Below the pieces are notes generated by a model. That model ran no database searches. It was not told where the DNA came from and was given only the letters and a program-made list of their open reading frames with translations. From an uncultured candidatus Porisulfidus sp. (lineage in GTDB: Bacteria; Pseudomonadota; Gammaproteobacteria; Poriferisulfidales; Poriferisulfidaceae), in the NCBI GenBank assembly GCA_965204575.1, contig OZ241993.1, positions 901,850 to 965,849 of the forward strand: a stretch of DNA of 64,000 nt, in the 5' to 3' direction. A program made the position numbers and the translations under genes. Shown here one piece after another: positions 1 through 18,101 of the stretch. Numbering within the stretch: the stretch's first letter is position 1; every line of letters starts with the position of its first letter.

Positions 1-1
1 T

Positions 2-397
2 CTTGTTGAGCTCAAAGCAATTGATGTAAGAGAGATATGTAACAGTGTAGATCCTGAATGTTACTTGTTGCCTTGTAGATCAGGTGGGATGGATCAACTA
101 CAAAAGCCTGTATATTTCTTGGACGAGCGTCCCAAGCAACGCAAAAACTGGGTTTTAATAGGATGTGAAAGAAGTCTTCAATTTCATCGACACTATTATG
201 GAGATGAGCCACCCCAGGTTGAGATGTGTCCACGCAAGCTTCGACAAGAATCTGAAGTGCCTACACTATTGAAGTGTTGTCTACTTGAATTCGAGGTTGA
301 AAGAGATGGGGACCTGATGGTTGTTCCCTGGGGTGCTGATCTCACTATGGTAGAACAAGCTTTACGGGAAATTTCGAGTGAGGTTGAGTATGTCTAA
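2..397 (+). CDS. hypothetical protein, 5'-truncated by the window edge (C-terminal ~130 aa visible); first visible gene of the comA-like operon
   Basis: Frame 2 is open from nt 2 with no stop codon until 397. The track lists only the TTG-initiated tail 65..397. A 20-nt overlap with the next gene start suggests co-transcription. No motif recognised. Confidence 0.35.
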   Translation, partial: LVELKAIDVREICNSVDPECYLLPCRSGGMDQLQKPVYFLDERPKQRKNWVLIGCERSLQFHRHYYGDEPPQVEMCPRKLRQESEVPTLLKCCLLEFEVERDGDLMVVPWGADLTMVEQALREISSEVEYV

Positions 398-1274
398 GTC
401 TGCTTGGGATGGGATTCAAGTCATAAGTGAATTCATGAAAGAGCGTGTAGAGCGGCAAAAAAACGTTGGTATGACGATGGTTATCGATACGTGTATGGGG
501 CCGCAGATGTTGCAGGATATGCTTCTAGTTTCGAATGAGTATATTGATCACTGGAAGTTTAGTTATGGAGTATCTGCCGTGATGCCTGCAAACATACTCC
601 GTCAAATGCTCGATACATTAAATCAATACAACATCAATACATTTCCTGGAGGTACGCTGCTAGAGGCTGCGATCATTCAGAAAAATTGTCAATCGTACAT
701 GCTGCGTGCCAAAGAGATTGGATTCCGTTCAGTCGAAATTTCAGATGGAACGATCACACTGCCCATTAAGCGCAGGCGTAACGCAATCTTGTGTGCGCTA
801 GACAATGGATTGATTCCAATTACAGAGGTAGGTAAAAAGGACCCCACAAAGCAACCAAGCCCTGAAGAACTCGCAGACCTGATTCTGCAAGATTTATATT
901 TTGGTGCTGAGTATGTAATCTTGGATGCAAGAGAATCCGGGCGCGAAATCGGCATATTTGACCAAAATGGAGACTTGAAGCTCGAATTATTTGATAAAAT
1001 CTTATCGTTAGTTGGGCAAAAAAAAGAAAAGGTCATTTGGGAAGCCCCCCTAAGAAAACAACAGGCCGCCCTGATCAAACAAATTGGTCCAAATGTAAAC
1101 CTTGGGAATATAAGCCCCATGGACGTCTTGTCGCTAGAGTCATTACGCTTGGGACTTCAATATGAATCCTTAAGAGAAGTTGCCGACGAGTCTACCCAGC
1201 GTGGAATGTGGGACCCTGATTCAGTAGAAAACTCTGATACAACCGAGATACCGCAAGAATCTGTAAAGAAATGA
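378..1274 (+). CDS. comA: (2R)-phospho-3-sulfolactate synthase (ComA family; XcbB1-like)
   Basis: 298 aa. Contains ComA-family hallmark segments GMTMVIDTCMG ... YIDHWKFSYGVS, matching ComA KGLTMVIDKGLG ... IDFVKFGWGTS. Low-GC codon usage. Stop overlaps the next start (ATGA). Confidence 0.8.
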   Translation: MRLSMSKSAWDGIQVISEFMKERVERQKNVGMTMVIDTCMGPQMLQDMLLVSNEYIDHWKFSYGVSAVMPANILRQMLDTLNQYNINTFPGGTLLEAAIIQKNCQSYMLRAKEIGFRSVEISDGTITLPIKRRRNAILCALDNGLIPITEVGKKDPTKQPSPEELADLILQDLYFGAEYVILDARESGREIGIFDQNGDLKLELFDKILSLVGQKKEKVIWEAPLRKQQAALIKQIGPNVNLGNISPMDVLSLESLRLGLQYESLREVADESTQRGMWDPDSVENSDTTEIPQESVKK

Positions 1275-2788
1275 GTGACAGATTTTCAGACTCCGATGCT
1301 GTTTTGTGTACCAATGGCCGGTTATCACAGCCTCCCGAAGATATATTAGTTACCAGTGCTTTTAAGAGTGAGCTTCAAGAACAGCTCTGCTTGTCAGAAG
1401 AAATGAATCGGGTGGATATTGCACATGTAATAGGATTAGTTGAGGCCAAGGTTATCAAGAAGAAAGTAGGCGCTGACCTGTTGAATGCATTGCAAAAATT
1501 ACAGGAGAATCCAACGGATTTCCAACCTGACCCTAAATTCGGTGATTTATTTACAAATCGAGAAAATTGGTTAGAACAACACTCAAGCGCAGTAGGCTGG
1601 TTATGTGCAGGCAGAGCGCGTAGAGAAAGCACTACGGTCGCTTATCATTTAACAATAAAAAAGATTTTGCTTGACCTTGCTGATGAAATAACAGCCTTGA
1701 TGCGGGTAATGATGATACAGGTGTCGGCGCATAAGGCATCAGTTATGCCGGATTACACGTATATGCAGCCGGGACAGCCAACGACATTCGGGCATTATTT
1801 ACATTCATTTGTATTCATGCTGATGCGTGATCTTGCGCGCATTGAATCACTTTATGGAAGGGTCAATTGTTGTCCAGCAGGGTGCGGAGGCATAAACGGG
1901 TCAACTCTTCAGATTGACAGGGAAAAGCTGTCAAGCTTGTTAGGCTTTGCGAGGCCTGTCATGCATGCAAGAGATGCAATGTGGCAAGCTGATACTTCCA
2001 TTGAGATCGCGTCAGTTTCAACTTCAATTTTAGTTACGCTGGACCGCTTTTGCGAAGATGTACTGTATTTCGTGACGGAAGAATTCAACTACATCGAGTT
2101 GCAAGATTCTTGTTCACGAGCAAGTAAGATTATGCCGCAGAAAAAAAATCCTTATGCTTTAGCGTATATTCGAGCGCTGGCAAATAAGGTTATTGGCATA
2201 CAGAATATGGTGGTTGTGTCGCAGCGCACACCAACTGGACAGATTGATAATCGCCTGTTCTTGTACGGAGAAATTCCATTCGTGCTTAAGAAAAGCATCG
2301 AAGGAATTGGCTTGTTAAAAAATGCGGTGGAGGGATTGCAGTTCAAAACTTCAAATGCAGTAAACAGAATAAGGGAAAGCTACGCGATGGCCGCGGAACT
2401 AGCTGAACAAATTTCAGTTGAAAATGATTTGGATTATAGAACCGCCCATAAGATTGTTGGAAAAATTGTCCGAAATTTTATACACCTTAAAAAACCTTTA
2501 TTCGAGTTAACGGAACAAGAATTGAATGAAGCTGCAAGCGATGTAGTAGGTCGCCCAATTTCATGCTCCAGGCAGATCCTCGAGATGCTGAATTCTCCGC
2601 ATGTTGCAATTGAGAAAAAGTCCGGGTTAGGAGGCACGTCTAGAGAAAGGATCAAGGAGATGATCGAATACAGTAAACAAGAGATTAATTTTTATAAAAA
2701 ATGGACAGACAATGAACGGGAAAAAATAAAACAAGCAGAAAATGCATTGTCACAACACATGCATACCATTATCAGTCAAGCCCAATGA
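1271..2788 (+). CDS. aspartase/fumarase-superfamily lyase, argininosuccinate-lyase-like (candidate XcbC1/XcbD1-type CoM biosynthesis enzyme)
   Basis: 505 aa. Lyase-1 signature SKIMPQKKNPYALAYIRA matches the fumarate-lyase GSxxMxxKxN motif as in ArgH. Translationally coupled on both sides. Confidence 0.75.
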   Translation: MSDRFSDSDAVLCTNGRLSQPPEDILVTSAFKSELQEQLCLSEEMNRVDIAHVIGLVEAKVIKKKVGADLLNALQKLQENPTDFQPDPKFGDLFTNRENWLEQHSSAVGWLCAGRARRESTTVAYHLTIKKILLDLADEITALMRVMMIQVSAHKASVMPDYTYMQPGQPTTFGHYLHSFVFMLMRDLARIESLYGRVNCCPAGCGGINGSTLQIDREKLSSLLGFARPVMHARDAMWQADTSIEIASVSTSILVTLDRFCEDVLYFVTEEFNYIELQDSCSRASKIMPQKKNPYALAYIRALANKVIGIQNMVVVSQRTPTGQIDNRLFLYGEIPFVLKKSIEGIGLLKNAVEGLQFKTSNAVNRIRESYAMAAELAEQISVENDLDYRTAHKIVGKIVRNFIHLKKPLFELTEQELNEAASDVVGRPISCSRQILEMLNSPHVAIEKKSGLGGTSRERIKEMIEYSKQEINFYKKWTDNEREKIKQAENALSQHMHTIISQAQ

Positions 2789-4137
2789 CTTCATTATTCG
2801 TAGAATCCTCTATATACCAGAATTCCTGGAGTACGGAATCCTTGCGAAAAATTTTTGATGAGAAATCAAGAATCAGAACTTGGCTAGAAATATTGGCCGT
2901 CCTAGCAGAAGTCCAGTCAAAATTTGGGTTAATACCAAAATCAGCTGGAAATTCAATTAGGGAATTTTGCAGTCAAGTTGAGATCGATAGTGAATTACTT
3001 AATGACATCAAAGAAGGGTTTGAACAAAGTGGCCATTCCATGCAGGGCTTTATCAATGCTTTGGCAAAGCGTGGAGGCGAAGATGTAAAAAACTGGTTGT
3101 ATTTTGGCGCGACTGTACAAGATGTAACAGATACCTGGTTTTCGATCGCTTTGAGGGATGTCAGGGAACAGTTTTTGTTGGATATAAATGCAATATGTTC
3201 TATTACCAAAAATCTCATGAGCGAGCATCGCGACACGATCATGCCAGGGCGTACGCATGGACAACACGGGTTGCCTATAACATTTGGATTTAAGGTTGCG
3301 GGTTGGGCGTGTGAACTGGATCGTCATCGAACTCGGTTATCGCAATTGGGTAACCGAATGGACGAGGGGCAGTTATGTGGAGGCGTTGGATCACTTTCAT
3401 CGTTAGGCCGCCACGGTCTAGAAATTCAAAAGGAATTTTGTAATCGCCTCGGATTACGCGACCCCATTATCTCTTGGATTTCAAGTCGGGATGTATTTGC
3501 AGAATGGGGCCAGTTATTAGTGCTGATAACTGGAACTGCAGATCGTATCGGTCATGAAATTTATAATTTGCAAAGGACAGAAATTGCAGAACTTATTGAG
3601 ATTACGCCTATAGAAACCGTAGGCAGTATTACGATGCCGCATAAACAAAACCCAGAAATATCCGAACATCTGGGAACGCTTGCCAGAGTCGTTCGCCATA
3701 ATGCTGCAATTCTTCTTGAGGGCTTAGTCACTGATCATGAACGAGATGGTCGATCTTGGAAAAGTGAATGGCATGTCCTGCCGCTCATAACTTTAGTATC
3801 GGGAAAATCTCTAGAGTTACTGAAATTAATATTGTCAAACTTAGAAGTACAAACACTGAAAATGAAAGAGAACTTAGAAATCAGTGGCGAACAGATATTT
3901 TCAGAAGGTGTAATGCTGGCGTTAGCAAAAAAACTGGGGAAAAACCAGGCTCAAAAAATAGTCTACAAGGAAGCAATGAATGCGCGTAAGAAAGGAATTT
4001 CATTCAGAGAGGCTGTTTTGAATAACTCTCAAATTTCATCCAATCTAAGTGCTGAAGATATCGATGAGATTTTTAAAAATGAAAATCGTCTTGGTTTATG
4101 TACAGCGATGGTTGATAGAGTGCTAAACAAAATATGA
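2785..4137 (+). CDS. aspartase/fumarase-superfamily lyase, adenylosuccinate-lyase / 3-carboxymuconate-cycloisomerase-like (candidate XcbD1/XcbC1-type)
   Basis: 450 aa. Signature SITMPHKQNPEISE resembles the PurB/PcaB-type SSxMPHKxNP motif; also TIMPGRTHGQHGLPITFG. ATGA overlaps at both ends. Confidence 0.75.
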   Translation: MTSLFVESSIYQNSWSTESLRKIFDEKSRIRTWLEILAVLAEVQSKFGLIPKSAGNSIREFCSQVEIDSELLNDIKEGFEQSGHSMQGFINALAKRGGEDVKNWLYFGATVQDVTDTWFSIALRDVREQFLLDINAICSITKNLMSEHRDTIMPGRTHGQHGLPITFGFKVAGWACELDRHRTRLSQLGNRMDEGQLCGGVGSLSSLGRHGLEIQKEFCNRLGLRDPIISWISSRDVFAEWGQLLVLITGTADRIGHEIYNLQRTEIAELIEITPIETVGSITMPHKQNPEISEHLGTLARVVRHNAAILLEGLVTDHERDGRSWKSEWHVLPLITLVSGKSLELLKLILSNLEVQTLKMKENLEISGEQIFSEGVMLALAKKLGKNQAQKIVYKEAMNARKKGISFREAVLNNSQISSNLSAEDIDEIFKNENRLGLCTAMVDRVLNKI

Positions 4138-5126
4138 GTACTCAAACACTCGCATCTGATGACTTGCCGAAAATCAGCCGTTGTGAGTTCGCACAATTTC
4201 CCACTCCTTTGCAGCGGTTTAAAAAACTGGAAAAAGATCTCAATGATATTGAGCTATGGGTTAAACGCGATGACCTAATCGAATTTGGTTATGGGGGAAA
4301 TAAAGTCAGGGCACTTGAATACATAGCGGCAGACGCATTAAAGAGGGGGTCGAAAACGTTAATTACGGGTGCAGGTGTACAGTCCAATCATGTACGTGCA
4401 ACGGCAGCAGTGGCAGCTTATTTAGATCTGAATTGTATCGCTATCTACTGGGGCAGCCCCCCAAAAGAAGTTACAGGCAATTATTACCTGACCAAATTGT
4501 TGGGAGCAGAAACCAGATTTACACACGATACTGATCGAAGCTCGGTAGATACAATGATCCGACTTGTTGAGCAAGAACTGATGCATGGTGATGCCCTTCC
4601 TTATTCAATCCCGCGAGGAGGAGCATGTGCACTAGGGGTAATCGCTCACATGTTTGCGGCGAAGGAATTATTTGAGCAGTGCCAAAGCAAAGAAATAAAT
4701 GTCGATCTTGTAACGCTTGCAGTGGGTTCTGGAGGGACTATAGCTGGTTGGGTACTTGCACGAATCTTGTATGACCATCCTTGGCGAATCGAAGGCTTTA
4801 CTGTGAGTCGGCCTGCCAAGGAGTTAAAGGAAATTGTTCATAATTTAGTACAACAAGCCGCCGTAGTATTGAATGTCGCAGTAAACATAAATTTGGAGGA
4901 GATAGTAATCCGTGAGGGCTACATTGGTGATGGATACGGGATACCAAGTATTGAAGGGAATGAAACAATTAAAGATGTTGCAATCAAGCAAGGTGTTTTT
5001 TTTGATCCGACGTATACAGGAAAAGCATTTGCTGGACTTTCAGATTTAATAAATAATGGTTTCTACAAGGACATTCAAACAGCCGTGTTTTTACATACAG
5101 GAGGAGAGCCGGTTTTGTTTAGTTAG
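4134..5126 (+). CDS. PLP-dependent D-cysteine desulfhydrase / ACC-deaminase family enzyme (XcbE1-like)
   Basis: 330 aa. TPLQRF ... VKRDDL ... GGNKVRALEYI ... GxQSNHVRATAAVAA matches the ACC deaminase/DcyD family; the PLP lysine context is conserved. Confidence 0.8.
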   Translation: MSTQTLASDDLPKISRCEFAQFPTPLQRFKKLEKDLNDIELWVKRDDLIEFGYGGNKVRALEYIAADALKRGSKTLITGAGVQSNHVRATAAVAAYLDLNCIAIYWGSPPKEVTGNYYLTKLLGAETRFTHDTDRSSVDTMIRLVEQELMHGDALPYSIPRGGACALGVIAHMFAAKELFEQCQSKEINVDLVTLAVGSGGTIAGWVLARILYDHPWRIEGFTVSRPAKELKEIVHNLVQQAAVVLNVAVNINLEEIVIREGYIGDGYGIPSIEGNETIKDVAIKQGVFFDPTYTGKAFAGLSDLINNGFYKDIQTAVFLHTGGEPVLFS

Positions 5127-5140
5127 TATAGGGTCAACAA

Positions 5141-6586
5141 ATGACAGAAGTTAAAACTACAACTATTCCTGATTTGCAAACAAGTGCAATGTCGACGGAT
5201 AGCGATGAACGCGAAATTTTAAAATTGGTGGAGAATGCCAGATTTGCACAATTGCAAGTAAATTCCTATACGCAAGAACAAGTAGATGAATTAGTGACAT
5301 CAATTGCCTGGAGCGTTATCAAAAATAGAGAAGAATTGGCACGCATGGCTGTTGATGAGGGTGAGTTTGGAAATTACGCTGATAAAGTAACAAAGATTTA
5401 CAATCGCGTAATAGGAACATTGGCGGATATGCGTTCAGTCAAGACTGTTGGTGTAGTTGAAGAGGACCCTGAGACCGGAATAACAAAGCTCGCTAAACCC
5501 GTGGGTGTAATTGGTGCACTTATTCCGGCAACAGGTCCTGATGCAACGCCGCCCGTCAAGGCATTAGGCGCGATTAAAGCAAGAAACGCGTTGATCATAG
5601 CGCCACACCCAAGGACAAAAAGAAGTTCAGCTAGAGTAGTCGAATGCATACGAGAAGGTTGTACTCGCGTTGGTGCCCCTGAAGACCTGGCACAAGTGAT
5701 AACCAGCCCTTCAATTCAAAAGACAAAAGTGCTAATGGAAAATGTAGATCTCATCGTGGCAACGGGGGGCATGAGTATGGTGAAAGCCGCATACAGCTCA
5801 GGGAAACCTGCATATGGAGTAGGTGTAGGGAATGCGGTACATATAGTGGATGAAACCGCAGACCTCAACGATGCCGCTGATATGATTGCAAAGGCAAAGA
5901 CATTTGATTTTGCAACAAGCTGCTTGGCGGATAACGCCATAGTAGTTCATCAAGATATCTACAAAGTACTAGTAAACAAGTTGATAGAACTTGGTGGTTA
6001 TTTATGTAATAAAGCAGATAAAAATAGCCTTGAAAAAGTTATGTGGCCAAAAGATGCCCATATCCCATCTCCTGAAATCATCGCGAAATCTGCAGAGTCA
6101 ATTGCGAAGAAGGCACAAATTGATATTCAGCCTGGCAAAAGCTTTCTGTTAGTAGAAGAAACCGGAATTGGAGAAGGCCATCCGTTCTCTGGAGAAAAAC
6201 TGTCCGTTGTTTTAGCCGTCTATCAATATTCGGGTAAAATCGAAAATGCGGTAGATGTCGTAAATAGAATTACGAATTATCAGGGCTTGGGACATACATG
6301 CGGAATACATTCACAATCTGAAGCAAACATCAACTATGTTGCCCTAAATACAAAAACAGCAAGAGTCATCGTGAATCAAAATCTTAATGAAGGAGCAGGC
6401 AGCCCCAGAAACGGATTGCCCTATACATTGTCACTTTCCTGTGGGACATGGGGAGGGAACATCACAACCGAAAATGTCAATGTTAGAAACTTTATGAATG
6501 TGACCTGGGTTTCACGTCCAGTACGTCCTCGTGCGTTTAACGAAGAGGAGCTGTTTGAAAATTATTGGAACAAATATGGCAAGTAA
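5141..6586 (+). CDS. CoA-acylating aldehyde dehydrogenase (EutE/PduP/SucD-like ALDH)
   Basis: 481 aa. Related to acylating ALDHs (DLIVATGGMSMVKAAYSSGKPAYGVGVGN ... ADNAIVV). No typical NAD-ALDH Glu/Cys decapeptide. SD-like GGAG upstream. Confidence 0.65.
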   Translation: MTEVKTTTIPDLQTSAMSTDSDEREILKLVENARFAQLQVNSYTQEQVDELVTSIAWSVIKNREELARMAVDEGEFGNYADKVTKIYNRVIGTLADMRSVKTVGVVEEDPETGITKLAKPVGVIGALIPATGPDATPPVKALGAIKARNALIIAPHPRTKRSSARVVECIREGCTRVGAPEDLAQVITSPSIQKTKVLMENVDLIVATGGMSMVKAAYSSGKPAYGVGVGNAVHIVDETADLNDAADMIAKAKTFDFATSCLADNAIVVHQDIYKVLVNKLIELGGYLCNKADKNSLEKVMWPKDAHIPSPEIIAKSAESIAKKAQIDIQPGKSFLLVEETGIGEGHPFSGEKLSVVLAVYQYSGKIENAVDVVNRITNYQGLGHTCGIHSQSEANINYVALNTKTARVIVNQNLNEGAGSPRNGLPYTLSLSCGTWGGNITTENVNVRNFMNVTWVSRPVRPRAFNEEELFENYWNKYGK

Positions 6587-6621
6587 GAATCAGTTATTGA
6601 GATTTTCTCGGCTATACATGG

Positions 6622-8136
6622 GTGCATGACATGAAACATTATGAGTTAGGGACTGTAGAAGACCTAAAAAATTCTACCCGATTAAAACAAGAGGGTTTTG
6701 ATGAAAATTTTTTAAAAGGAAAACGCCCTTCACCGATCGAACCGGTACAAAATGTTATGGATTTGGCCGATGATATTAACAGCAAGAAATATGATGCCGT
6801 AATTGTTGGAAGTGGCCCGGGAGGATCAGCTGTTGCAAGAGAACTGGCAAGGGCAGGAAAAAAAGTAGTCGTACTGGAGTATGGGAAAGATCATCGAGGT
6901 AAATGGTATTACGGAACTGTCGCAGGACCTTTTCTCTACACCGAAAAACGTGGCTTTTTAAAATCTAAGGAAGGGGTAACAATTGTCCGCCCGATGCTTA
7001 CTGGGGGGGCAACCAACATGTTTGCAAGTGCTGCTTCAGGCCCTCCATCTTGGTGGTTTGATAAAACGGGTGTGGATATAGAGTCTGAAGTTAACGAAAC
7101 CATTGATGAGCTTCGGATTGAGGCGTTACCTGAAGAACTCACTGGCGCTGCATCACAACGTATTGGAGAAGCAGGCAGAGATCTAGGCATGGACTGGGTG
7201 CCCCAAACAAAATTCATTCATCCAAAGCGGTGTTACTCTGAATTAGATTGCGGTGATAAATGCATGTTTGGTTGTCGATGTGGAGGCAAGTGGACTGCAA
7301 ATGAATATTTGGATCAAGCTATTGAGGCCGGTGCGTCCGTTATTACCGAGTGTAACGTTCATAATGTTGAGATTGAAGATGGCGTAGCAACCGGGGTATA
7401 TGCTGAAGTACACGGGGAAAGATTCAGACTGAATGGCCAGGTCGTTATTGTTTGTGCTGGAGGAATTGGCACACCTAGAATTTTACAAAATTCAGGCATT
7501 CATAATGCTGGAGATGCACTGGGTGTAGACACTACATTTGTTGTATATGGTGTCATCAAAGAGAAAGGAAATACTGGTGATCCACCTATGACGATCAGCT
7601 ATTGTGACGATGAGAATGGTTTGATGTATTCGACACTCACTCAGCCATTTGGGCTATTTGCGCTTACTCAATATTACAAAGGTTGGAGGCATTTAAAGAA
7701 AGTGCCCAAGTTTCCGCGTATGCTAGGAATTATGGTTAAGATAAAAGAGGGCCTTAAAGGCTATGTGGCACCGGATGGACAGATCAGTATGCCTTTGTTG
7801 CATGATGATTTCCTCCGGGCAAACATTGGGTTCAGTACTAGCAAAAGTATTCTTATGAAAGCGGGATGTGATCCAAATACTATTTTTTGGAACCCCCCAA
7901 GAGGAACACATCCATGCGCAACAGTGCGTATAGGTGATCACTTGGATTCCGATCTAAAAACTCTTGCATTTGATAACTTATATGTCTCGGATGCGAGCAC
8001 TTTCCCATTACCCCTGGTACGTCCTCCGACACTTACAATTATTGGGCAAAGCAAGAGGTTGGCAAAGCATCTTATTGAAACCAAACTCAAAGACACTCAA
8101 ATTCAGAAAGAGGAAAATATGGCATTGGCACAATAG
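6622..8136 (+). CDS. GMC-family FAD-dependent oxidoreductase
   Basis: 504 aa. N-terminal FAD fold DAVIVGSGPGGSAVARELARAGKKVVVLEYG. Its length and C-terminal region fit GMC oxidoreductases. Confidence 0.7.
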   Translation: MHDMKHYELGTVEDLKNSTRLKQEGFDENFLKGKRPSPIEPVQNVMDLADDINSKKYDAVIVGSGPGGSAVARELARAGKKVVVLEYGKDHRGKWYYGTVAGPFLYTEKRGFLKSKEGVTIVRPMLTGGATNMFASAASGPPSWWFDKTGVDIESEVNETIDELRIEALPEELTGAASQRIGEAGRDLGMDWVPQTKFIHPKRCYSELDCGDKCMFGCRCGGKWTANEYLDQAIEAGASVITECNVHNVEIEDGVATGVYAEVHGERFRLNGQVVIVCAGGIGTPRILQNSGIHNAGDALGVDTTFVVYGVIKEKGNTGDPPMTISYCDDENGLMYSTLTQPFGLFALTQYYKGWRHLKKVPKFPRMLGIMVKIKEGLKGYVAPDGQISMPLLHDDFLRANIGFSTSKSILMKAGCDPNTIFWNPPRGTHPCATVRIGDHLDSDLKTLAFDNLYVSDASTFPLPLVRPPTLTIIGQSKRLAKHLIETKLKDTQIQKEENMALAQ

Positions 8137-8183
8137 AAAATGCATGCAATTTTTTGTGCATTAAATAATTTACAAAAAGAAAA

Positions 8184-8846
8184 TTGGAAGAACTAGAATT
8201 AATCAGCTTAAAACTATGTCCTTTTGTACAAAGGGCGGTGATAGTTTTAAATCACAAAAACATAAATTATAAAATCACTCATGTGGACTTGGAGAATCCA
8301 CCAGGCTGGTTTAATAAAATCTCACCATTAAAGAAAGTTCCGCTTCTAAAGATAGGTGAAAAAGATGTCCTGTTTGAATCAGCGGTTATCTGTGAATACA
8401 TAGATGATGTTACACCAATCAAGTTACGGCCAGAAAACCCGCTCCAATTGGCATACAATCGTGCATGGATTGAATTTGGATCTACATGCCTTGTAGATCA
8501 GTATTTGCTGCTTTTAAAAAAAACAGAGAAAGAGTTTAAAGAGCAAGCTGATCAAATCATCAGTAAACTACATTTAGTAGAGAATACTTTGAATAATCAG
8601 CCATTTTTTAATGGCGAACAATTCTCGCTTGTAGATGCCGCATATGCTCCATTACTGATACGATATGAAATCATAAATAATATTATTCCAATATTTAATT
8701 CTCAGAGCTTTGAAAAGCTTTCAAACTGGTCAGATACGATTCTTGGATCAAGCGCTGTACAAGAATCAATAGAATCAGATTTCCTCACCCAGTATAAAGA
8801 CAAAATTGCAGGTTTCGACGGATACTTGTCATCCCATATTAGCTAA
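8184..8846 (+). CDS. glutathione S-transferase-like protein (thioredoxin-fold N-domain)
   Basis: 220 aa. N-terminal GST-like fold LCPFVQRA ... KVPLL ... ESAVICEYI, followed by a helical C-domain. Confidence 0.55.
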   Translation: MEELELISLKLCPFVQRAVIVLNHKNINYKITHVDLENPPGWFNKISPLKKVPLLKIGEKDVLFESAVICEYIDDVTPIKLRPENPLQLAYNRAWIEFGSTCLVDQYLLLLKKTEKEFKEQADQIISKLHLVENTLNNQPFFNGEQFSLVDAAYAPLLIRYEIINNIIPIFNSQSFEKLSNWSDTILGSSAVQESIESDFLTQYKDKIAGFDGYLSSHIS

Positions 8847-8886
8847 AGATTAGCTAGAAAAACTCTACTCTAAAAAACTTTCTTTT

Positions 8887-10026
8887 GTGAATTTACTTGC
8901 ATCCAGATCTGCAGTTTGTGCTGCATTGATATTGGCCATAGGAATGGGTTTTGGACGTTTTTGTTTTACAGGCATTTTCCCTGTAATGGCTGATGAAGGA
9001 TCGTTGACACTAGATGGGGGCGCCTATGTGGCATCTGCAAACTACGCAGGATATTTGCTTGGTGCATTGTTAGCTATTAATACGCACCCTAATGACTCGT
9101 TTAAGCTGTGTCTTTATTCGATTTTAGGTACCGCATTGACAATTGCGTTTTTGGCTGTGTACCAGAGCGTGTGGTTTTTGATTGTCATGCGTGGCCTTTC
9201 AGGTGTATTCAGCGCCACTGCAATGGTTGGCGCCTCATCATGGTTATTGCAGTACAAAGGGGATCATCGTGCTTCGCCAATTTTATACGCAGGTATTGGG
9301 TTTGGAATTTTAATTTCGGCAGAAATCATCGCTATAGGTCAGCACTTTGGATTTGGTAGTGCGGAATTATGGTTCTTGCTAGGCGGAGCGGGTTTGCTAA
9401 TTGGGATACCTTGTATTTGGCTGATGAAAATGGATTCAGCGGGAAAGACCGTAGACCAAATCTATACAGGCATTCACAGTGCAGAAGTATTTGACAAGTG
9501 GAAACTAGTTTTAATTTATGGGTTAGCAGGGTTTGGTTATATCATTACCGCCACTTACCTTCCCTTGATAATCAAAAATGACTTGGGCATTGGAATCGGT
9601 ATCCACATATGGGCAGTGTTTGGATTAGGAGCGATGTTCTCATGTTTTTTTTGGCATGGGGTTCAAGCTAAACTGGGCTCAAGAAATTCGTTATTTGTTA
9701 ATTTAATTATCCAATCGATCGGTGTAGCGCTTCCAGTATTCAGTCAAACATTATCCAGTTATTTGTGCAGTGCACTCTTGGTTGGTGGCACATTTATGGG
9801 ATTTGTTACTATTGCTAAATCAATAGCACTGCAAATATCTCATGAAGCACGAGGTAACCTCATGGCAATCATGACTACTTCGTTTGGAATAGGCCAGATT
9901 GCGGGTCCGCTGGTTGCCAACGAGACCTATGATGTGAGCAAATCGTTTTCTTTGTCTTTTCTCATGGCAAGTATGGCGCTAATTATTGCAGCCGTAATCT
10001 CTTTAAAAGCTAACAGGAAAATTTGA
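8887..10026 (+). CDS. MFS-type membrane transporter (YbfB/YjiJ-like)
   Basis: 379 aa, about 12 predicted TM helices. Conserved N-terminal FGRFCFTGIFPVM segment typical of YbfB/YjiJ. GTG start as in the track. Confidence 0.55.
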   Translation: MNLLASRSAVCAALILAIGMGFGRFCFTGIFPVMADEGSLTLDGGAYVASANYAGYLLGALLAINTHPNDSFKLCLYSILGTALTIAFLAVYQSVWFLIVMRGLSGVFSATAMVGASSWLLQYKGDHRASPILYAGIGFGILISAEIIAIGQHFGFGSAELWFLLGGAGLLIGIPCIWLMKMDSAGKTVDQIYTGIHSAEVFDKWKLVLIYGLAGFGYIITATYLPLIIKNDLGIGIGIHIWAVFGLGAMFSCFFWHGVQAKLGSRNSLFVNLIIQSIGVALPVFSQTLSSYLCSALLVGGTFMGFVTIAKSIALQISHEARGNLMAIMTTSFGIGQIAGPLVANETYDVSKSFSLSFLMASMALIIAAVISLKANRKI

Positions 10027-10097
10027 TTAATCTGCATAGCGATAACCGACAAGCCTCTGGGTATGTACAGATCCTATGTGAAATTGGACAGTTCAAA

Positions 10098-10183
10098 TGG
10101 TGCCGATGGCCGGACTCGAACCGGCACGGCTTTCGCCACTGCCCCCTCAAGACAGCGTGTCTACCAGATTCCACCACATCGGC
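10098..10183 (-). tRNA. leuU: tRNA-Leu (anticodon GAG), class II, 86 nt including CCA
   Basis: Reverse complement is GCCGATGTGGTGGAATCTGGTAGACACGCTGTCTTGAGGGGGCAGTGGCGAAAGCCGTGCCGGTTCGAGTCCGGCCATCGGCACCA. 7-bp acceptor stem, anticodon loop TTGAGGG, long variable arm. Sits directly downstream of secG, as leuU does in E. coli. Coordinates ±1-2 nt. Confidence 0.85.
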
Positions 10184-10218
10184 ACTGCCTGCAGTATTAT
10201 CACAAAACGCGCCAAATC

Positions 10219-10587
10219 CTACTCAGGAATTTCTCCGGCTGGGCCCAATTCCGGTTCGAATTCCGAAATAACCGGCTGTTCCGGGATGCCGGGTTCGGGA
10301 AGGGCCTGCTCGGCTTCCGGTACGGCAATTTGCCCCATGAGGCTCTGTTCGGGTGGTGCGGTTTTGACGATCCACGCCAGCGCTAGGCAGTTGATGAAAA
10401 ACAGGGCAACGATGACGGCGGTGATCCGACTGAGAAAGGTTGCGCTTCCGCGTGCGCCGAAAACAGAACCGGAGGCGCCGCCGCCGAATGCTGCGCCGGT
10501 ATCCGCGCCCCGGCCGTGCTGCAGCAGCACCAGGCCGATGATGCTCAGCGACAGCAGGATCGCGGTGATGAGGAGGACGGTGTACAT
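10219..10587 (-). CDS. secG: preprotein translocase subunit SecG
   Basis: 122 aa. MYTVLLI ... LLQHGRGADTGAAFGGGASGSVFG is the SecG signature. Confidence 0.9.
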   Translation of the reverse strand: MYTVLLITAILLSLSIIGLVLLQHGRGADTGAAFGGGASGSVFGARGSATFLSRITAVIVALFFINCLALAWIVKTAPPEQSLMGQIAVPEAEQALPEPGIPEQPVISEFEPELGPAGEIPE

Positions 10588-10591
10588 CTGC

Positions 10592-11365
10592 CTATTTTCG
10601 CACGGCCTGGCAAATGGACAGGAATTCGTCGGCCTTCAGGGAAGCGCCGCCGACCAGGCCGCCGTCGATATCTGGCATGGAGAACAATTCCGACGCATTG
10701 GCTGCCTTGACGCTGCCGCCGTACAGCACGACCGTGTCCTGCGCAGCGGTTCCGAGCTTCTGCTCCAAGTGCGCCCGGATGGCGGCGTGCACTTCCTGCG
10801 CCATGTCTGGGGTGGCCGCGACTCCAGTGCCGATGGCCCAGACCGGCTCGTAGGCGATCAGCGCGCGCGGGAATGCGTCCGGGAAGCTTCGGACCGGCTG
10901 CAGTTGCCGGTGGATCACGTCCAGGGTCTGTCCCGCCTCGCGCTCCTCCAGGGTTTCTCCGACGCACAGGATCGCCCGGGGTGCGCCCGGGGTGTCTTGT
11001 TGCGCCGACTGGTGCAGGAGGGCGAACTTCTGCTCGATCAACTCGTCGGATTCGCCGTACACGTGACGGCGCTCGGAATGGCCGATGATGGCGTGCGAGC
11101 AGCCCAGTTCGGCCAGCATGGCCACGGAGACTTCGCCGGTGAAGGCGCCCTCGGGTTGGTCGCAGACGTTCTGCGCGCCGATCTGGACCGGGCTTTCCGT
11201 AGTCTCTTCCAGGACGTCAAGCAGGTGGACGAACGGAGGGCAGAGCAGGACTTCCGGAGCGGTCGCATCCCCGACCCCCTGTGCGACGGCACGGGCCAAC
11301 GCCCGGGCGGTGTCCCGGGAGCCATGCATTTTCCAGTTGCCGGCGACGACGGTCGGTCGAGCCAT
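10592..11365 (-). CDS. tpiA: triosephosphate isomerase
   Basis: 257 aa. N-terminal VAGNWKMHG and IGHSERR motifs. Confidence 0.9.
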   Translation of the reverse strand: MARPTVVAGNWKMHGSRDTARALARAVAQGVGDATAPEVLLCPPFVHLLDVLEETTESPVQIGAQNVCDQPEGAFTGEVSVAMLAELGCSHAIIGHSERRHVYGESDELIEQKFALLHQSAQQDTPGAPRAILCVGETLEEREAGQTLDVIHRQLQPVRSFPDAFPRALIAYEPVWAIGTGVAATPDMAQEVHAAIRAHLEQKLGTAAQDTVVLYGGSVKAANASELFSMPDIDGGLVGGASLKADEFLSICQAVRK

Positions 11366-11423
11366 GAAAGGGATCCGGTGGTTATCGGGGGGTAATGCGG
11401 TGGGGCATTATAAAGGGCGGTTC

Positions 11424-12755
11424 TCAGGCACCCGTGTCGATCGAGTTGGCGATAGATTGCGCGAGGGCTTCGACCCTTCCGTGATCTTCTCCCTCCACCA
11501 TGACACGCAACACCGGCTCTGTCCCGGAGGGGCGCAGGAGAACCCGACCTTGCTCGCCCAGTTCATTGCGCGCACTCTGCACGGCCGCATCCGTGGCCGG
11601 GCCGGGCGTACGGTCGCGTGGGCAACGCACATTGATCATGGTCTGTGGATACTTCCGCAGGTCCGAACGCGCCTGGCACAGGGGCTGGCCGAGAATATGC
11701 AGCGCTTCCAGTGTCTGTAGCGCCGCAACCATCGCGTCGCCGGTGCAGGCCCGGTCGCGGCAGATGATGTGGCCGGAGGTCTCTCCGCCGAGTTGCCAGT
11801 CGCGGGCCAGCAGTAATTCCTGGACATAGCGGTCGCCGACCGCAGCCCGCTCGAACGGGATTTCCAGGGCGGCCAGTGCTTTCTCCAGGCCCAGGTTGCT
11901 CATCTGGGTGCCGGCCACGCCGCCGTTCAGGGTGCCCTGAATCTGCCGGGCGCGGGCAATGACATACAAGAGATCGTCCCCGTCCGCGATTTCGCCGTCT
12001 TCGTCGATCATGATCAGCCGGTCGCCGTCGCCGTCCACGGCTAGCCCGAGAGTGGCACGGTGTTCACGGGTTTGGGCGCGGACATATTCCGGGCAGGTCG
12101 CACCACAACCATCGTTGATGTTCGTCCCGTCAGGCTCCACGCCGACGGTAGCCACGTCTGCGCCTAGTTCCTCGAACAGTTTCGACGCAAGCTGGTAAGC
12201 GGCTCCGTGCGCGCAGTCGACCAGCAGGCACAAGCCGTCGAGGCGGAACCCCTCGGGCACGGTGCCCTTGCAGAAATCAAGGTAGCGGCGCCCGGCGTCA
12301 TTGATTCGGCGGGCCTTGCCGGGCAGCGACCGGGGGTCGATGTCCATCGGCTGCTCAAGTTCCGCTTCGATGCGATGCTCGATCTCATCGGGCAGTTTGG
12401 CGCCGTCCGCGTCGAACAGCTTGATGCCGTTGTCGTAGTGCGGGTTGTGCGAGGCGCTGATGACGATGCCGGCGCAGGCATCCAGTTCCCGGGTCAGTTG
12501 GGCGATGGCGGGAGTCGGCTGGGGGCCCAGCAGCAGGACATTGACGCCGGCCGCGGATAAACCGGCCTCCAGCGCAGACTCGAACATGTAGCCGGAACGG
12601 CGGGTGTCCTTGCCGATCAGGATCTGGGGGAATTCGGACTCGCGCCCGAGTACGCGCCCGATGGCCCAGCCCAGGCGCAGCACGAAGTCCGGCGTCATCG
12701 GGCTGACTCCAACCCGGCCCCGGATTCCGTCAGTTCCGAAATAGGTGCGGGACAT
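11424..12755 (-). CDS. glmM: phosphoglucosamine mutase
   Basis: 443 aa. YFGTDGIRG start and the phosphoserine loop SASHNP. Confidence 0.9.
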   Translation of the reverse strand: MSRTYFGTDGIRGRVGVSPMTPDFVLRLGWAIGRVLGRESEFPQILIGKDTRRSGYMFESALEAGLSAAGVNVLLLGPQPTPAIAQLTRELDACAGIVISASHNPHYDNGIKLFDADGAKLPDEIEHRIEAELEQPMDIDPRSLPGKARRINDAGRRYLDFCKGTVPEGFRLDGLCLLVDCAHGAAYQLASKLFEELGADVATVGVEPDGTNINDGCGATCPEYVRAQTREHRATLGLAVDGDGDRLIMIDEDGEIADGDDLLYVIARARQIQGTLNGGVAGTQMSNLGLEKALAALEIPFERAAVGDRYVQELLLARDWQLGGETSGHIICRDRACTGDAMVAALQTLEALHILGQPLCQARSDLRKYPQTMINVRCPRDRTPGPATDAAVQSARNELGEQGRVLLRPSGTEPVLRVMVEGEDHGRVEALAQSIANSIDTGA

Positions 12756-12777
12756 GCGCGGTCGGCCGCGACTGGAA

Positions 12778-14703
<1,926 letters not shown>

Positions 14704-14952
14704 GCGCGCTTTTCCCGGAAACCTTGGCCTTTCAGCATACTAGGATAGCAGATGGCGCGGGGACCGCGGGCGCATTCTGCTCCTGTAACGAGATATGGGG
14801 GAGCAGGCGGGGATTTCCAAGCCAAGACTAGGAGCGTTGCTCTCGAATGAGGTGCAACGACGATACGTGTCATTTCTAGCAACTGAAACATTATTTTCGG
14901 TACTTAACCAGTTTTGTGCATGTAATGAAAGTAAACGGAACATAGTTTGGTA

Positions 14953-16513: not shown

Positions 16514-16789
16514 ATGAATAACCATATCAGAATAGTTGCGCTCTACCTGTTGGTTCTTGCTGGCCATCCTGCCTTTGCGGATGATGCTGAAGAAAAGAGA
16601 GATGCGTTCTATGAGAGACTTTCATATGACAGGCAGGCGATGTGCCATTTGATGGCAAAGGAGATACATTGGAGGTACTCGACTCCTAACGCGAAAAGTC
16701 TTTTGGTCTATGACAAATTAGCTCCGGCATTCTGCAAATGGTGCAAGGACTTGGACAAGGATCACTATCGGGCGGTCTGCCCAAAATAA
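16514..16789 (+). CDS. small secreted cysteine-containing protein (signal peptide MNNHIRIVALYLLVLAGHPAFA)
   Basis: 91 aa from an internal ATG of the 205-aa track ORF. Signal peptide followed by a charged domain with four Cys (CHLM ... CKWCKD ... VCPK). Confidence 0.3.
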   Translation: MNNHIRIVALYLLVLAGHPAFADDAEEKRDAFYERLSYDRQAMCHLMAKEIHWRYSTPNAKSLLVYDKLAPAFCKWCKDLDKDHYRAVCPK

Positions 16790-18082: not shown

Positions 18083-18101
18083 ATGGACGGGTTCGGCCGG
18101 G

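What the first reader, a model, noticed from the sequence alone, without database searches (positions are those of the whole stretch)
5141..10026. Accessory module downstream of the CoM genes: acylating ALDH + GMC oxidoreductase + GST-like + MFS transporter. Possible CoM-dependent catabolic route.
Same strand and same low-GC composition as the CoM operon. A GMC alcohol oxidoreductase followed by a CoA-acylating aldehyde dehydrogenase would suffice to convert a 2-hydroxyalkyl-CoM (the epoxide-CoM adduct) to acyl-CoA with release of CoM, a step proposed but not firmly assigned in ethene/vinyl-chloride degraders. The GST-like and MFS proteins could handle epoxide or thiol conjugates, or export. 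This linkage is inference only.
Basis: inference. Interest (0 to 1): 0.6.

Follow-up and report, generated by a model that had tools for sequence, protein, structure and literature searches.

The report
Coenzyme M epoxide-detoxification island, variant form
The four genes are the tail of a horizontally acquired island that lets a sponge-associated sulfur bacterium make coenzyme M and use it to dispose of small epoxides; the pathway type is known, but here an unusual iron-sulfur flavoprotein stands where the usual alcohol dehydrogenase would be.

Summary
Four same-strand, closely spaced genes at 35-44% GC follow xcbABCDE: an acylating ALDH, a GMC-fold flavoprotein, an omega-class GST and an MFS_4 transporter.

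They form the 3' half of a ~15 kb island of ~42% GC in a 62-66% GC Candidatus Porisulfidus chromosome. The island abuts tRNA-Leu. A sister genome still has an integrase there.

Near-identical genomes show what lies just upstream of the window: an E3-like disulfide reductase, an epoxyalkane:CoM transferase (65% identical to Xanthobacter XecA) and CoA-transferase A/B. The island has no monooxygenase and no SDR.

The ALDH is an orthologue of the ALDH in ethene/vinyl-chloride clusters (61-63% to Nocardioides JS614 and M. chubuense NBB4) and in methanotroph epoxyethane clusters. Every homologue at 60% identity or more on a long enough contig is linked to CoM genes; none at 51% or less is.

The GMC protein is cytoplasmic. 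It carries the Fe-S cysteine motif of FAD-glucose/fructose dehydrogenases. It occurs only where the SDR is absent, so it probably replaces hydroxyalkyl-CoM dehydrogenase (inference).

The GST and MFS genes are variably present and their roles are conjecture.

Verdict: a new variant of a known kind.

The parts
1..10090 (.). Right-hand ~10 kb of a ~15 kb low-GC genomic island. The left part (DSOR, EaCoMT, CoA-transferase A/B, XcbA N-terminus) lies outside the window.
   Evidence: GC 0.35-0.44 against 0.61-0.66 in the flank. The same island sits at the same chromosomal site in L001-L003 and L083. Its GC matches the flanks in the low-GC genomes L086, L087 and L008.
65..397 (+). XcbA, C-terminal 110 aa (the window start cuts the gene); final reductase of bacterial CoM biosynthesis.
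   Evidence: NCBIfam CoM_XcbA_fam 194 bits, profile positions 186-292 of 293. Function from PMC9457059.
378..1274 (+). XcbB/ComA, phosphosulfolactate synthase.
   Evidence: Pfam ComA 263 bits; TIGR03849 288 bits, above the cut-off of 280.
1271..2788 (+). XcbC (aspartase/fumarase superfamily; phosphate elimination giving sulfoacrylate).
   Evidence: NF052535 CoM_syn_XcbC 569 bits, just under the cut-off of 575.
2785..4137 (+). XcbD, 3-sulfopropionylcysteine synthase.
   Evidence: NF052536 621 bits, above the cut-off of 600.
4134..5126 (+). XcbE, PLP enzyme of CoM biosynthesis.
   Evidence: NF052537 444 bits, cut-off 450.
5141..6586 (+). CoA-acylating aldehyde dehydrogenase, orthologue of the etn-cluster ALDH that IMG annotates as 'sulfoacetaldehyde dehydrogenase'. 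Proposed substrate: 2-oxoethyl-CoM, or the free aldehyde left after C-S cleavage.
   Evidence: Best solved relatives are acylating SucD (8cei, 1.6e-89), acetylating ACDH and the AdhE N-domain, with the catalytic Cys aligned. SauS model 500 bits, below the cut-off of 600; EutE/PduP-type models are far below their cut-offs. 61-63% identical to the JS614 and NBB4 cluster ALDHs. Gene linkage and clade.
6631..8136 (+). Cytoplasmic GMC-fold FAD dehydrogenase with an Fe-S cysteine motif (the ORF opens at GTG 6622; ATG 6631 is the likely start). Proposed 2-hydroxyalkyl-CoM dehydrogenase replacing the SDR.
   Evidence: Pfam GMC_oxred_N and GMC_oxred_C. The N-terminus is hydrophilic, with no signal or Tat motif. 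DCGDKCMFGCRCG aligns with the 3Fe-4S cysteine loop of B. cepacia FAD-GDH alpha (PMC6719666). C207/C211/C215/C217 and RGTHP are invariant in 32 homologues. AF2 model pLDDT 85.9; top fold hits are FAD-GDH alpha and the fructose dehydrogenase large subunit. It directly follows the ALDH gene in every island variant that reaches that far, and no SDR is present there.
8184..8846 (+). Omega-class-like glutathione transferase with a catalytic-Cys CPF motif (start codon uncertain). Role conjectural: thiol-dependent cleavage or exchange on CoM/GSH conjugates.
   Evidence: Pfam GST_N_2/GST_N_3/GST_C. The best solved relatives are human GSTO1 (6.6e-21) and Leishmania TDR1, with the CPF motif aligned. Present in L001-L004, L006 and L086; absent from L007, L019 and L087.
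8887..10026 (+). MFS_4 (YbfB-type) transporter; substrate unknown.
   Evidence: Pfam MFS_4 249 bits. Present in the Porisulfidus-type islands, fragmented in L087 and absent from L086.
10098..10183 (-). tRNA-Leu(GAG). Its 3' end faces the island, so it is the likely integration site.
   Evidence: ARAGORN. In the sister genome L003 a P4-type tyrosine integrase and a SIR2-like gene lie between the MFS gene and this tRNA.

Best explanation
Region 5141-10026 is the distal part of one laterally acquired operon or island. The island lets a Ca. Porisulfidus-type sponge symbiont make coenzyme M and use it to consume small terminal epoxides (epoxyethane type) that it does not produce itself.

Proposed sequence:
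1. EaCoMT, just upstream of the window, opens the epoxide with CoM and gives 2-hydroxyethyl-CoM. Function inferred from 65% identity to the characterised XecA.
2. The GMC-fold Fe-S flavoprotein oxidises the alcohol to 2-oxoethyl-CoM, doing the job of the NAD-dependent SDR found in all other known clusters. Inferred from operon position, the complementary distribution with SDR, and family chemistry.
3. The acylating ALDH converts an aldehyde to a CoA thioester: either CoM-S-acetaldehyde to CoM-S-acetyl-CoA, or acetaldehyde to acetyl-CoA if C-S cleavage comes first. Enzyme class shown; substrate inferred.
4. CoM is released by thiol- or disulfide-reductase chemistry, using the island's E3-like DSOR and possibly the Cys-type omega GST. 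Conjecture.
5. The MFS protein moves a sulfonate or a conjugate. Conjecture.

The island has no monooxygenase, so the likely role is detoxification or scavenging of exogenous epoxides, as proposed for methanotrophs.
For: Island and operon
- GC break, collinearity with complete genomes, adjacent tRNA-Leu, and an integrase in sister genomes.
- Full gene order in L083: DSOR, EaCoMT, CoAT-A, CoAT-B, XcbABCDE, ALDH, GMC. There is no SDR and no oxygenase. L003 and L001 add GST and MFS.
- EaCoMT is 65% identical over its full length to Xanthobacter 2-hydroxypropyl-CoM lyase.

ALDH
- Acylating class, with the catalytic Cys aligned.
- Every homologue at 60% identity or more is linked to EaCoMT, CoAT or xcb genes, apart from two on short contigs (L005, L034). 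None of the 45 homologues at 51% or less is linked.
- The linked ALDHs form one clade that includes JS614 and NBB4.
- The Methylohalobius orthologue (P0038, 65%) rises on ethylene exposure (PMC11507031).
- pXAUT01 of the propene degrader Py2 is in the plasmid collection but has no ALDH at 60% or more. XcbA-E alone make CoM in vitro (PMC9457059). So the ALDH is not needed for CoM synthesis, which fits an aldehyde intermediate specific to the ethene-type route.

GMC protein
- It directly follows the ALDH gene in all variants from 72 to 99% ALDH identity.
- It is among the best-conserved island proteins: 78-84% against L086, L087 and L008, where XcbC is 58-70%.
- SDR and GMC are mutually exclusive across clades.
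- No signal peptide. Dehydrogenase fold with the Fe-S motif.

GST
- Omega class with the CPF cysteine. Omega GSTs reduce S-phenacyl-glutathiones, which are alpha-carbonyl thioethers (PMC3621891).
Against: - No enzyme of this island has been assayed, and the order of the steps after 2-oxoethyl-CoM is unknown even in model strains (PMC11507031).
- GMC homologues at 60-67% identity sit in unrelated contexts (L088-L091). Substrate specificity therefore cannot be read from family membership.
- The second residue of the GMC His/Asn pair is not conserved (position worked out by hand; Arg-Pro nearly invariant). The electron acceptor of the Fe-S flavoprotein is unknown.
- An acylating ALDH makes the conserved CoA-transferase hard to place in the scheme.
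- The DSOR is a generic E3-like disulfide reductase, not 2-KPCC-like. It was not found in the stretches held for L086 and L087.
- GST and MFS are dispensable in some variants.
- Whether the host has a monooxygenase elsewhere was not checked. No regulator gene was seen in the island.
Confidence: 0.6

Rival explanations
1. The ALDH belongs to CoM biosynthesis or salvage, not catabolism. It would be a true sulfoacetaldehyde dehydrogenase, handling sulfoacetaldehyde formed by hydrolysis of XcbE's unstable thioaldehyde product, or acting as a functional analogue of XcbA as Toppings et al. annotate it.
For: It lies directly after the last xcb gene here and in JS614, NBB4 and Carbonactinospora. The best NCBIfam model is SauS at 500 bits. 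IMG names the homologues 'sulfoacetaldehyde dehydrogenase'. PMC11507031 lists it among the CoM-biosynthesis enzymes. XcbE's product is the thioaldehyde of sulfoacetaldehyde and is unstable (PMC9457059).
Against: - The SauS score is below the cut-off of 600. An unlinked Halieaceae homologue, next to an acyl-CoA dehydrogenase and HIBADH, scores the same (511 bits). The SauS resemblance is therefore not substrate-specific.
- XcbA is present alongside the ALDH here and in the Methylococcaceae loci, so the ALDH is not a replacement for XcbA.
- XcbA-E suffice for CoM synthesis in vitro.
- pXAUT01, which carries xcb genes, has no orthologue at 60% or more.
- In many actinomycete loci the ALDH is next to DSOR, CoAT and ACS, with no xcb gene within 10 kb.
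Confidence: 0.15
2. Same pathway, different order (the Mattes-type scheme). The C-S bond of 2-oxoethyl-CoM is cleaved first, by a disulfide reductase or GST. The ALDH then acts on free acetaldehyde, or on malonate semialdehyde if cleavage is carboxylating, and gives acetyl-CoA or malonyl-CoA.
For: [quoted passage not shown] The ALDH's solved relatives are acetylating acetaldehyde dehydrogenases and succinate-semialdehyde dehydrogenases. 2-Oxoethyl-CoM is itself an alpha-carbonyl thioether, the substrate type that omega GSTs reduce.
Against: A dedicated, deeply conserved ALDH clade found only in CoM clusters is not needed if the substrate is ordinary acetaldehyde. Free acetaldehyde would be a toxic intermediate in a detoxification pathway. 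No data decide the order.
Confidence: 0.2
3. GMC, GST and MFS are hitch-hiking cargo: an independent redox/thiol detoxification set on the same mobile element, with no mechanistic tie to CoM.
For: GMC homologues at 60-67% identity are in non-CoM contexts. One (L088) lies next to an unrelated GST, a GFA-family protein and an integrase. GST and MFS are absent from some island variants. The island's right end is a variable hot-spot.
Against: The GMC gene keeps its position about 40 nt after the ALDH gene in every variant while the flanks differ, and it is more conserved than most Xcb proteins. These islands otherwise have no alcohol-oxidising enzyme. No promoter-like or terminator-like site separates the genes.
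Confidence: 0.2

Closest known systems
Ethene/vinyl-chloride (etn) clusters of Nocardioides sp. JS614 (pNOCA01) and Mycolicibacterium chubuense NBB4 / M. rhodesiae JS60
   Same: EaCoMT, two-subunit CoA-transferase and xcb CoM-biosynthesis genes, with an orthologous acylating ALDH (61-63% identity) placed right after the xcb genes. The clusters are laterally transferred (PMC8727900).
   Different: The island here has no EtnABCD monooxygenase, no SDR, no JS614-type DSOR, no ADP-forming acyl-CoA synthetase and no MEDS/CdaR regulators. It has instead a GMC-fold Fe-S flavoprotein, an omega GST, an MFS_4 transporter and an E3-like DSOR. EaCoMT is only 45-47% identical to the plasmid-borne actinobacterial homologues (JS614 47%, NBB4 45%).
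Monooxygenase-less epoxyethane detoxification cluster of methanotrophs (Methylohalobius crimeensis; Toppings et al. 2024, PMC11507031)
   Same: A CoM-dependent epoxide cluster in a genomic island of an organism that lacks an alkene monooxygenase. Contents are EaCoMT (64-65%), CoAT-A/B (58-60%), Xcb proteins and the ALDH orthologue (60-65%).
   Different: The methanotroph clusters use SDR dehydrogenases and have a MEDS regulator, and pMMO supplies the epoxide. Here the SDR is replaced by the GMC protein, no regulator was seen in the island, and no internal epoxide source is known.
Xanthobacter Py2 epoxide carboxylase system (XecA, XecD/E, XecC) with xcbA-E
   Same: EaCoMT 65% identical. The CoM biosynthesis pathway XcbA-E is the same.
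   Different: Py2 oxidises secondary alcohols with stereospecific SDRs and cleaves the ketone with the carboxylase 2-KPCC. pXAUT01 has no ALDH orthologue at 60% or more. The island's DSOR keeps the usual CxxxxC and HPxxxE motifs, and 2-KPCC is not among its PDB sequence matches at E<=1e-30.
FAD-dependent dehydrogenase complexes with a 3Fe-4S catalytic subunit (B. cepacia FAD-GDH alpha, Gluconobacter fructose dehydrogenase)
   Same: GMC fold, FAD motif, the cysteine-rich loop that binds the Fe-S cluster, and the active-site His.
   Different: Only 15-20% identical. No hitch-hiker (Tat) subunit and no cytochrome c subunit; cytoplasmic. A fourth invariant Cys is present. The Asn of the His/Asn pair is not conserved.
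Omega-class GSTs / LigG-type glutathione lyases
   Same: Thioredoxin-fold N-domain with the catalytic CPF cysteine; the best solved relative is GSTO1. This class reduces alpha-carbonyl thioethers (PMC3621891; LigG, PMC4858972).
   Different: The PDB match is distant (E about 1e-20). No activity, thiol partner or substrate is known, and the gene is missing from some island variants.
SauS, acylating sulfoacetaldehyde dehydrogenase of sulfoacetate degradation
   Same: Same acylating ALDH subfamily, and the best NCBIfam model (500 bits).
   Different: Below the equivalog cut-off of 600. No SauT/SauU/Xsc context. An unrelated clade scores the same.

Membership tests
CoA-acylating aldehyde dehydrogenases (AdhE-N / EutE / PduP / SucD type) | Full-length homology to solved acylating ALDHs, with the catalytic cysteine conserved | tested here: met
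   8cei SucD 1.6e-89 over residues 21-457. The Cys in '...FATSCLADN' aligns with the SucD catalytic Cys.
EutE/PduP (microcompartment aldehyde dehydrogenases) | Score above the curated family thresholds, plus a eut/pdu gene context | tested here: not met
   PRK15398 205 bits against a cut-off of 403; TIGR02518 337 against 620. No eut/pdu or shell genes appear in the contexts that were annotated.
SauS (acylating sulfoacetaldehyde dehydrogenase, equivalog NF047625) | Score at or above the curated cut-off of 600 bits | tested here: not met
   500 bits. An unlinked Halieaceae homologue scores 511 bits.
etn/CoM-cluster ALDH orthologous group | Monophyly with the ALDHs of characterised ethene/VC degraders, and conserved linkage to EaCoMT, CoAT or xcb genes | tested here: met
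   61-63% identity to JS614 and NBB4. Single clade in the NJ tree. Linkage in all loci at 60% or more, apart from two short contigs, and in none at 51% or less.
GMC oxidoreductases | N-terminal FAD-binding GxGxxG and the GMC N and C domains | tested here: met
   'VGSGPGG'; GMC_oxred_N 58 bits (cut-off 23) and GMC_oxred_C 32 bits (cut-off 24.6). AF2 model matches GMC folds at TM 0.6-0.7.
GMC oxidoreductases | Catalytic His/Asn (or His/His) pair | tested here: inconclusive
   The His is invariant (RGTHP, H427). The position equivalent to BcGDH Asn519 is Pro, preceded by a nearly invariant Arg. That position was derived by hand from the alignment and the numbering in PMC6719666.
3Fe-4S FAD-dehydrogenase complexes (FAD-GDH, FDH type) | Cysteine-rich loop that ligates the Fe-S cluster | tested here: met
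   DCGDKCMFGCRC aligns with the C212/C213...C218...C222 loop (PMC6719666). Four Cys are invariant in 32 homologues. The cluster itself was not observed.
3Fe-4S FAD-dehydrogenase complexes (FAD-GDH, FDH type) | Periplasmic heterotrimer with a Tat hitch-hiker subunit and a multihaem cytochrome c subunit | tested here: not met
   No signal peptide. No such genes in the island.
SDR 2-hydroxyalkyl-CoM dehydrogenases (XecD/XecE type) | Short-chain dehydrogenase fold | tested here: not met
   The protein has a GMC fold. No adh_short gene occurs anywhere in the island variants. It may work like these enzymes but is not a member.
Omega-class glutathione transferases | GST N and C domains with an active-site Cys in a CPF motif | tested here: met
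   Pfam GST_N_2, GST_N_3 and GST_C. 'KLCPFVQR' aligns with GSTO1 'RFCPFAER'.
MFS_4 (YbfB-like) transporters | Pfam PF06779 above threshold over the full length | tested here: met
   249 bits, residues 17-372.
2-KPCC (NADPH:2-ketopropyl-CoM oxidoreductase/carboxylase), for the island's DSOR (outside the window) | Close sequence similarity to 2-KPCC | tested here: not met
   The island DSOR has CAKTGC and YHPVLEE. It passes the E3 equivalog PRK06292.1-1 (484 bits against a cut-off of 435). Its best PDB relative is 3ic9, and no 2-KPCC entry appears at E<=1e-30. That 2-KPCC lacks the usual His-Glu dyad is recalled from memory.
tRNA-targeted integrative genomic island | Deviant composition, a tRNA at one end, an integrase, and flanking direct repeats | tested here: inconclusive
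   Composition and tRNA-Leu: met. The integrase is present only in the sister genome L003 and in L086. No att-like repeat was found.

The most novel reading that the evidence does not exclude
In these marine-symbiont islands the classical NAD-SDR / 2-KPCC pair has been replaced by a different redox logic. A cytoplasmic Fe-S flavoprotein dehydrogenase oxidises hydroxyalkyl-CoM. A Cys-type omega GST then acts as a 'CoM lyase': it cleaves the alpha-carbonyl thioether and releases CoM as a mixed disulfide, which the E3-like reductase recycles. This would be the first GST-type C-S lyase acting on CoM conjugates, and it would supply the long-unassigned CoM-release step of the ethene-type pathway.
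Probability: 0.12. Interest if true: 0.75.

Novelty: new variant of a known kind. Interest (0 to 1): 0.5.

Why it matters
The steps after 2-hydroxyethyl-CoM in ethene, vinyl-chloride and epoxyethane metabolism have never been assigned biochemically. This island is a stripped-down natural version of the pathway. It lacks a monooxygenase, an SDR, a 2-KPCC-type reductase, an acyl-CoA synthetase and a regulator. The candidate core is thereby narrowed to EaCoMT, CoA-transferase A/B, the ALDH and one dehydrogenase, and the island offers a non-homologous dehydrogenase to test.

It also extends CoM-dependent epoxide metabolism beyond soil alkene degraders and wetland methanotrophs, to reduced-genome, sponge-associated sulfur oxidisers and related marine gammaproteobacteria. 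That implies small epoxides are a real selective pressure inside such holobionts. One possible source is co-oxidation of ethylene by ammonia or methane oxidisers living in the same host; this is speculation.

Tried and rejected
- Megablast of the island against the plasmid collection found nothing.
- Exact-sequence look-ups of window XcbB, window XcbC and of P0038 found no record. I reached the upstream sequence through homologues instead.
- I considered an assembly or binning chimera at the GC break. I rejected it because complete chromosomes are collinear across the break. The 'Nitrospira bin75' contig L004, which carries the same island, is probably mis-binned.
- I considered EutE/PduP and rejected it on scores and gene context.
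- I tried to argue that resemblance to SauS implies a sulfonated substrate. I dropped this because an unlinked clade scores equally against the SauS model.
- I tested whether the GMC-GST pairing recurs in L088. The two GSTs are unrelated (33% over 55 residues).
- A search for att direct repeats of the tRNA end returned only chance-level matches.
- I looked for a monooxygenase in the window. There is only a BenC/MmoC-type reductase with no oxygenase partner. The rest of the window is housekeeping.
- Literature searches for 'Porisulfidus', 'TsSOB', and CoM plus sponge found no description of this island. The taxonomy look-up found no entry.

Full report
**1. What is there.** Between 5141 and 10026 there are four + strand ORFs with short gaps of 14-47 nt:
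- 5141-6586, an Aldedh-family protein.
- 6622/6631-8136, a protein with GMC_oxred_N and GMC_oxred_C domains.
- 8184-8846, a GST.
- 8887-10026, an MFS_4 (YbfB-type) transporter.

Directly upstream are XcbA (cut by the window start), XcbB/ComA, XcbC, XcbD and XcbE. These are the bacterial CoM biosynthesis pathway reconstituted in vitro by Wu et al. (PMC9457059). GC is 35-44% up to about 10.0 kb and 61-66% beyond, and GC3 shows the same break. The consensus scan found no promoter-like or terminator-like site in the + strand gaps.

**2. Where it comes from.** The window is 94-98% identical at the nucleotide level to Candidatus Porisulfidus genomes. These include one sponge MAG and two complete ~1.6 Mb chromosomes. 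L002 is collinear with the window from 1 to 14824, across the GC break, so the junction is real. A tRNA-Leu(GAG) at 10098-10183 has its 3' end towards the island. Housekeeping genes follow: tpiA, glmM, ftsH and, further on, folC, accD, trpBF, asd, leuBC, plsX, fabH, uvrC, pnp, glnS and xseA. In the sister genome L003 a P4-type tyrosine integrase and a SIR2-like gene lie between the MFS gene and the tRNA. The related island in L086 also ends with an integrase. I found no att repeat.

**3. The part outside the window.** In L003 and L083 the low-GC stretch continues upstream of xcbA. It holds CoA-transferase subunits B and A, a 370-aa MetE-like protein and a 449-aa pyridine-nucleotide disulfide oxidoreductase. 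Host genes (lpxD-fabZ-lpxA), mobile-element genes and a Fic gene follow.
- The MetE-like protein is 65% identical over its full length to the Xanthobacter Py2 2-hydroxypropyl-CoM lyase, i.e. EaCoMT/XecA.
- The DSOR passes an E3 (dihydrolipoyl dehydrogenase) equivalog model. It has the normal CxxxxC and HPxxxE motifs, and 2-KPCC is not among its PDB sequence matches at E<=1e-30.
- The island contains no monooxygenase, no SDR and no regulator.

**4. The ALDH.**
- *Class.* It belongs to the CoA-acylating class. Its best solved relatives are acylating succinate-semialdehyde dehydrogenase (1.6e-89), acetylating acetaldehyde dehydrogenase and AdhE N-domains, and the catalytic Cys aligns. It fails the EutE/PduP-type thresholds. 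Its best NCBIfam model is SauS, below cut-off (500 against 600 bits).
- *Linkage.* Among 80 genomic loci, every homologue at 60% identity or more is within 10 kb of EaCoMT, CoA-transferase A/B and/or xcb genes, apart from two on short contigs (L005, L034). These are actinomycetes, Methylococcaceae and the marine clade. None of the 45 homologues at 51% or less is linked.
- *Phylogeny.* A neighbour-joining tree puts all linked ALDHs in one clade, which includes both copies from Nocardioides JS614 pNOCA01 and the copy from M. chubuense NBB4. In those ethene/vinyl-chloride degraders the gene lies just after the xcb genes, divergent from DSOR-SDR-CoAT-ACS. It is drawn as 'ACDH' in published etn cluster maps (PMC8727900).
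- *Expression.* In Methylohalobius crimeensis the protein named 'sulfoacetaldehyde dehydrogenase' increases on ethylene exposure (PMC11507031). Its sequence (P0038) is 65% identical to the window ALDH.

**5. Biosynthesis or catabolism?** Toppings et al. file this ALDH under CoM biosynthesis, as an analogue of XcbA. I think that is unlikely, for four reasons.
- XcbA co-occurs with the ALDH here and in the Methylococcaceae loci.
- XcbA-E alone make CoM in vitro.
- The propene plasmid pXAUT01 is in the searched collection but has no ALDH at 60% or more.
- In many actinomycete loci the ALDH sits next to DSOR-CoAT-ACS with no xcb gene within 10 kb.

An aldehyde arises only in the ethene-type route, where a primary alcohol gives 2-oxoethyl-CoM. 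It does not arise in the propene route, which goes through a ketone. This matches the distribution.

I cannot say whether the substrate is CoM-S-acetaldehyde or a free aldehyde formed after C-S cleavage. The SauS resemblance does not help, because an unlinked Halieaceae homologue in an acyl-CoA-dehydrogenase/HIBADH context scores the same.

**6. The GMC protein.**
- *Sequence features.* The likely start is ATG 6631, giving 501 aa. The N-terminus is hydrophilic, with no signal or Tat motif. Its closest solved relative by sequence is the catalytic subunit of B. cepacia FAD-glucose dehydrogenase. The alignment runs through the cysteine loop that ligates the 3Fe-4S cluster of that enzyme (PMC6719666).
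- *Conservation.* In 32 homologues, DCGxKCMxGCxC (four Cys) and RGTHP are invariant. The Asn of the His/Asn pair is not conserved; I derived this by hand from the alignment and the numbering.
- *Fold.* An AlphaFold model (pLDDT 85.9) matches FAD-GDH alpha and the Gluconobacter fructose dehydrogenase large subunit best. The island has neither a hitch-hiker subunit nor a cytochrome subunit. The protein is therefore a cytoplasmic, stand-alone member of the Fe-S flavoprotein dehydrogenases, with an unknown electron acceptor.

**7. Why I assign the GMC protein to the pathway.**
- It follows the ALDH gene immediately in every island variant from 72 to 99% ALDH identity. These are Porisulfidus, three other gammaproteobacterial chromosomes, a Thiotrichales MAG, L086 and L087, and their flanks differ.
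- It is among the most conserved island proteins: 78-84% against L086, L087 and L008, compared with 58-70% for XcbC.
- These variants have no SDR, whereas every SDR-containing cluster (actinomycetes, Methylococcaceae) has no GMC gene.
- GMC enzymes oxidise alcohols to carbonyls, which is the step that would otherwise be missing.

Against this, homologues at 60-67% identity lie in unrelated contexts. The CoM-linked clade is therefore a recent recruitment, and specificity cannot be read from the family. I put the probability that the GMC protein is the hydroxyalkyl-CoM dehydrogenase at about 0.55-0.6.

**8. GST and MFS.** The GST is omega-class-like, with the catalytic CPF cysteine aligned to GSTO1. 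Omega GSTs reduce S-phenacyl-glutathiones, and LigG-type enzymes cleave beta-keto thioethers (PMC3621891 and PMC4858972). That is the chemistry needed to free CoM from an alpha-carbonyl thioether, so the GST is a candidate for the unassigned CoM-release step. This is only a chemical analogy. The gene is absent from L007, L019 and L087, and the GST next to the GMC homologue in L088 is unrelated. The MFS_4 protein has no characterised relative. It is missing from L086 and fragmented in L087.

**9. Origin of the island.** In L086, L087 and L008 the operon's GC (about 0.35-0.45) matches its surroundings. In Porisulfidus it is about 20 points below the host. Low-GC marine gammaproteobacteria are therefore the likely source.

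**10. Comparison and novelty.** CoM-dependent epoxide clusters with this ALDH are known in ethene/VC degraders. A monooxygenase-less form carried on a genomic island and interpreted as epoxyethane detoxification is known in methanotrophs (PMC11507031). Three things are new here:
- the host type, namely reduced-genome sponge symbionts and related marine bacteria;
- the minimal gene set;
- the non-homologous replacement of the SDR by an Fe-S GMC-fold dehydrogenase, with an omega GST and an MFS transporter attached.

I found no paper that mentions CoM genes in Porisulfidus or sponges. My verdict is a new variant of a known kind, of moderate interest.

Noticed in passing
L003 14932-18238 (between the MFS gene and tRNA-Leu; absent from the window at 10083/10084): A sister Porisulfidus genome carries 3.3 kb more here: a P4-type tyrosine integrase (16861-18087, - strand) and a SIR2_2-domain protein (15470-16618, - strand). 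The window's genome has lost them, so the island's right end is a variable hot-spot.
   Followed up: partly
window 14800-17200: A second low-GC patch (38-47% GC) lies between ftsH and a metallophosphoesterase gene. ORFs 14953-15672 (-) and 16172-16789 (+) hit no Pfam or NCBIfam family. Collinearity with L002 stops at 14824, so this is probably another strain-variable insertion.
   Followed up: partly
window 41189-44101 (+): A 970-aa ORF with no Pfam hit lies in a 54-57% GC patch (39-44 kb). Just upstream, at 40066-40674, is a nucleotidyltransferase-domain protein.
   Followed up: no
window 54415-57317 (+): An SspA-like GST, a BenC/MmoC-type Fer2-FAD-NAD reductase (55130-56221) and gloB lie in a row. 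The reductase type usually serves an oxygenase, but none is nearby. gloB suggests the host uses glutathione.
   Followed up: partly
L086 2316-2525 and L087 2304-2519 (equivalent gap in L003 2274-2527): A conserved small ORF (69-71 aa, weak Zn-ribbon match) lies between the EaCoMT and CoA-transferase A genes in the marine island variants.
   Followed up: no
L004 (MPMZ01000015.1, labelled 'Nitrospira sp. bin75'): This contig carries the same island at 97% nucleotide identity to the Porisulfidus window. It is most likely mis-binned in a sponge metagenome.
   Followed up: no
L083 8517-9842 (-): In one Porisulfidus relative a high-GC DDE transposase has inserted between the island's DSOR and EaCoMT genes. 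It separates the DSOR gene from the rest of the island.
   Followed up: no
Alignment A1 (GMC homologues; L088-L091): A broad, uncharacterised family of ~440-500 aa cytoplasmic GMC-fold proteins has an invariant DCGxKCMxGCxC motif. It occurs in Dehalococcoidia, Abyssubacteria and marine gammaproteobacteria, in varied gene contexts. No member appears to have a known function.
   Followed up: partly
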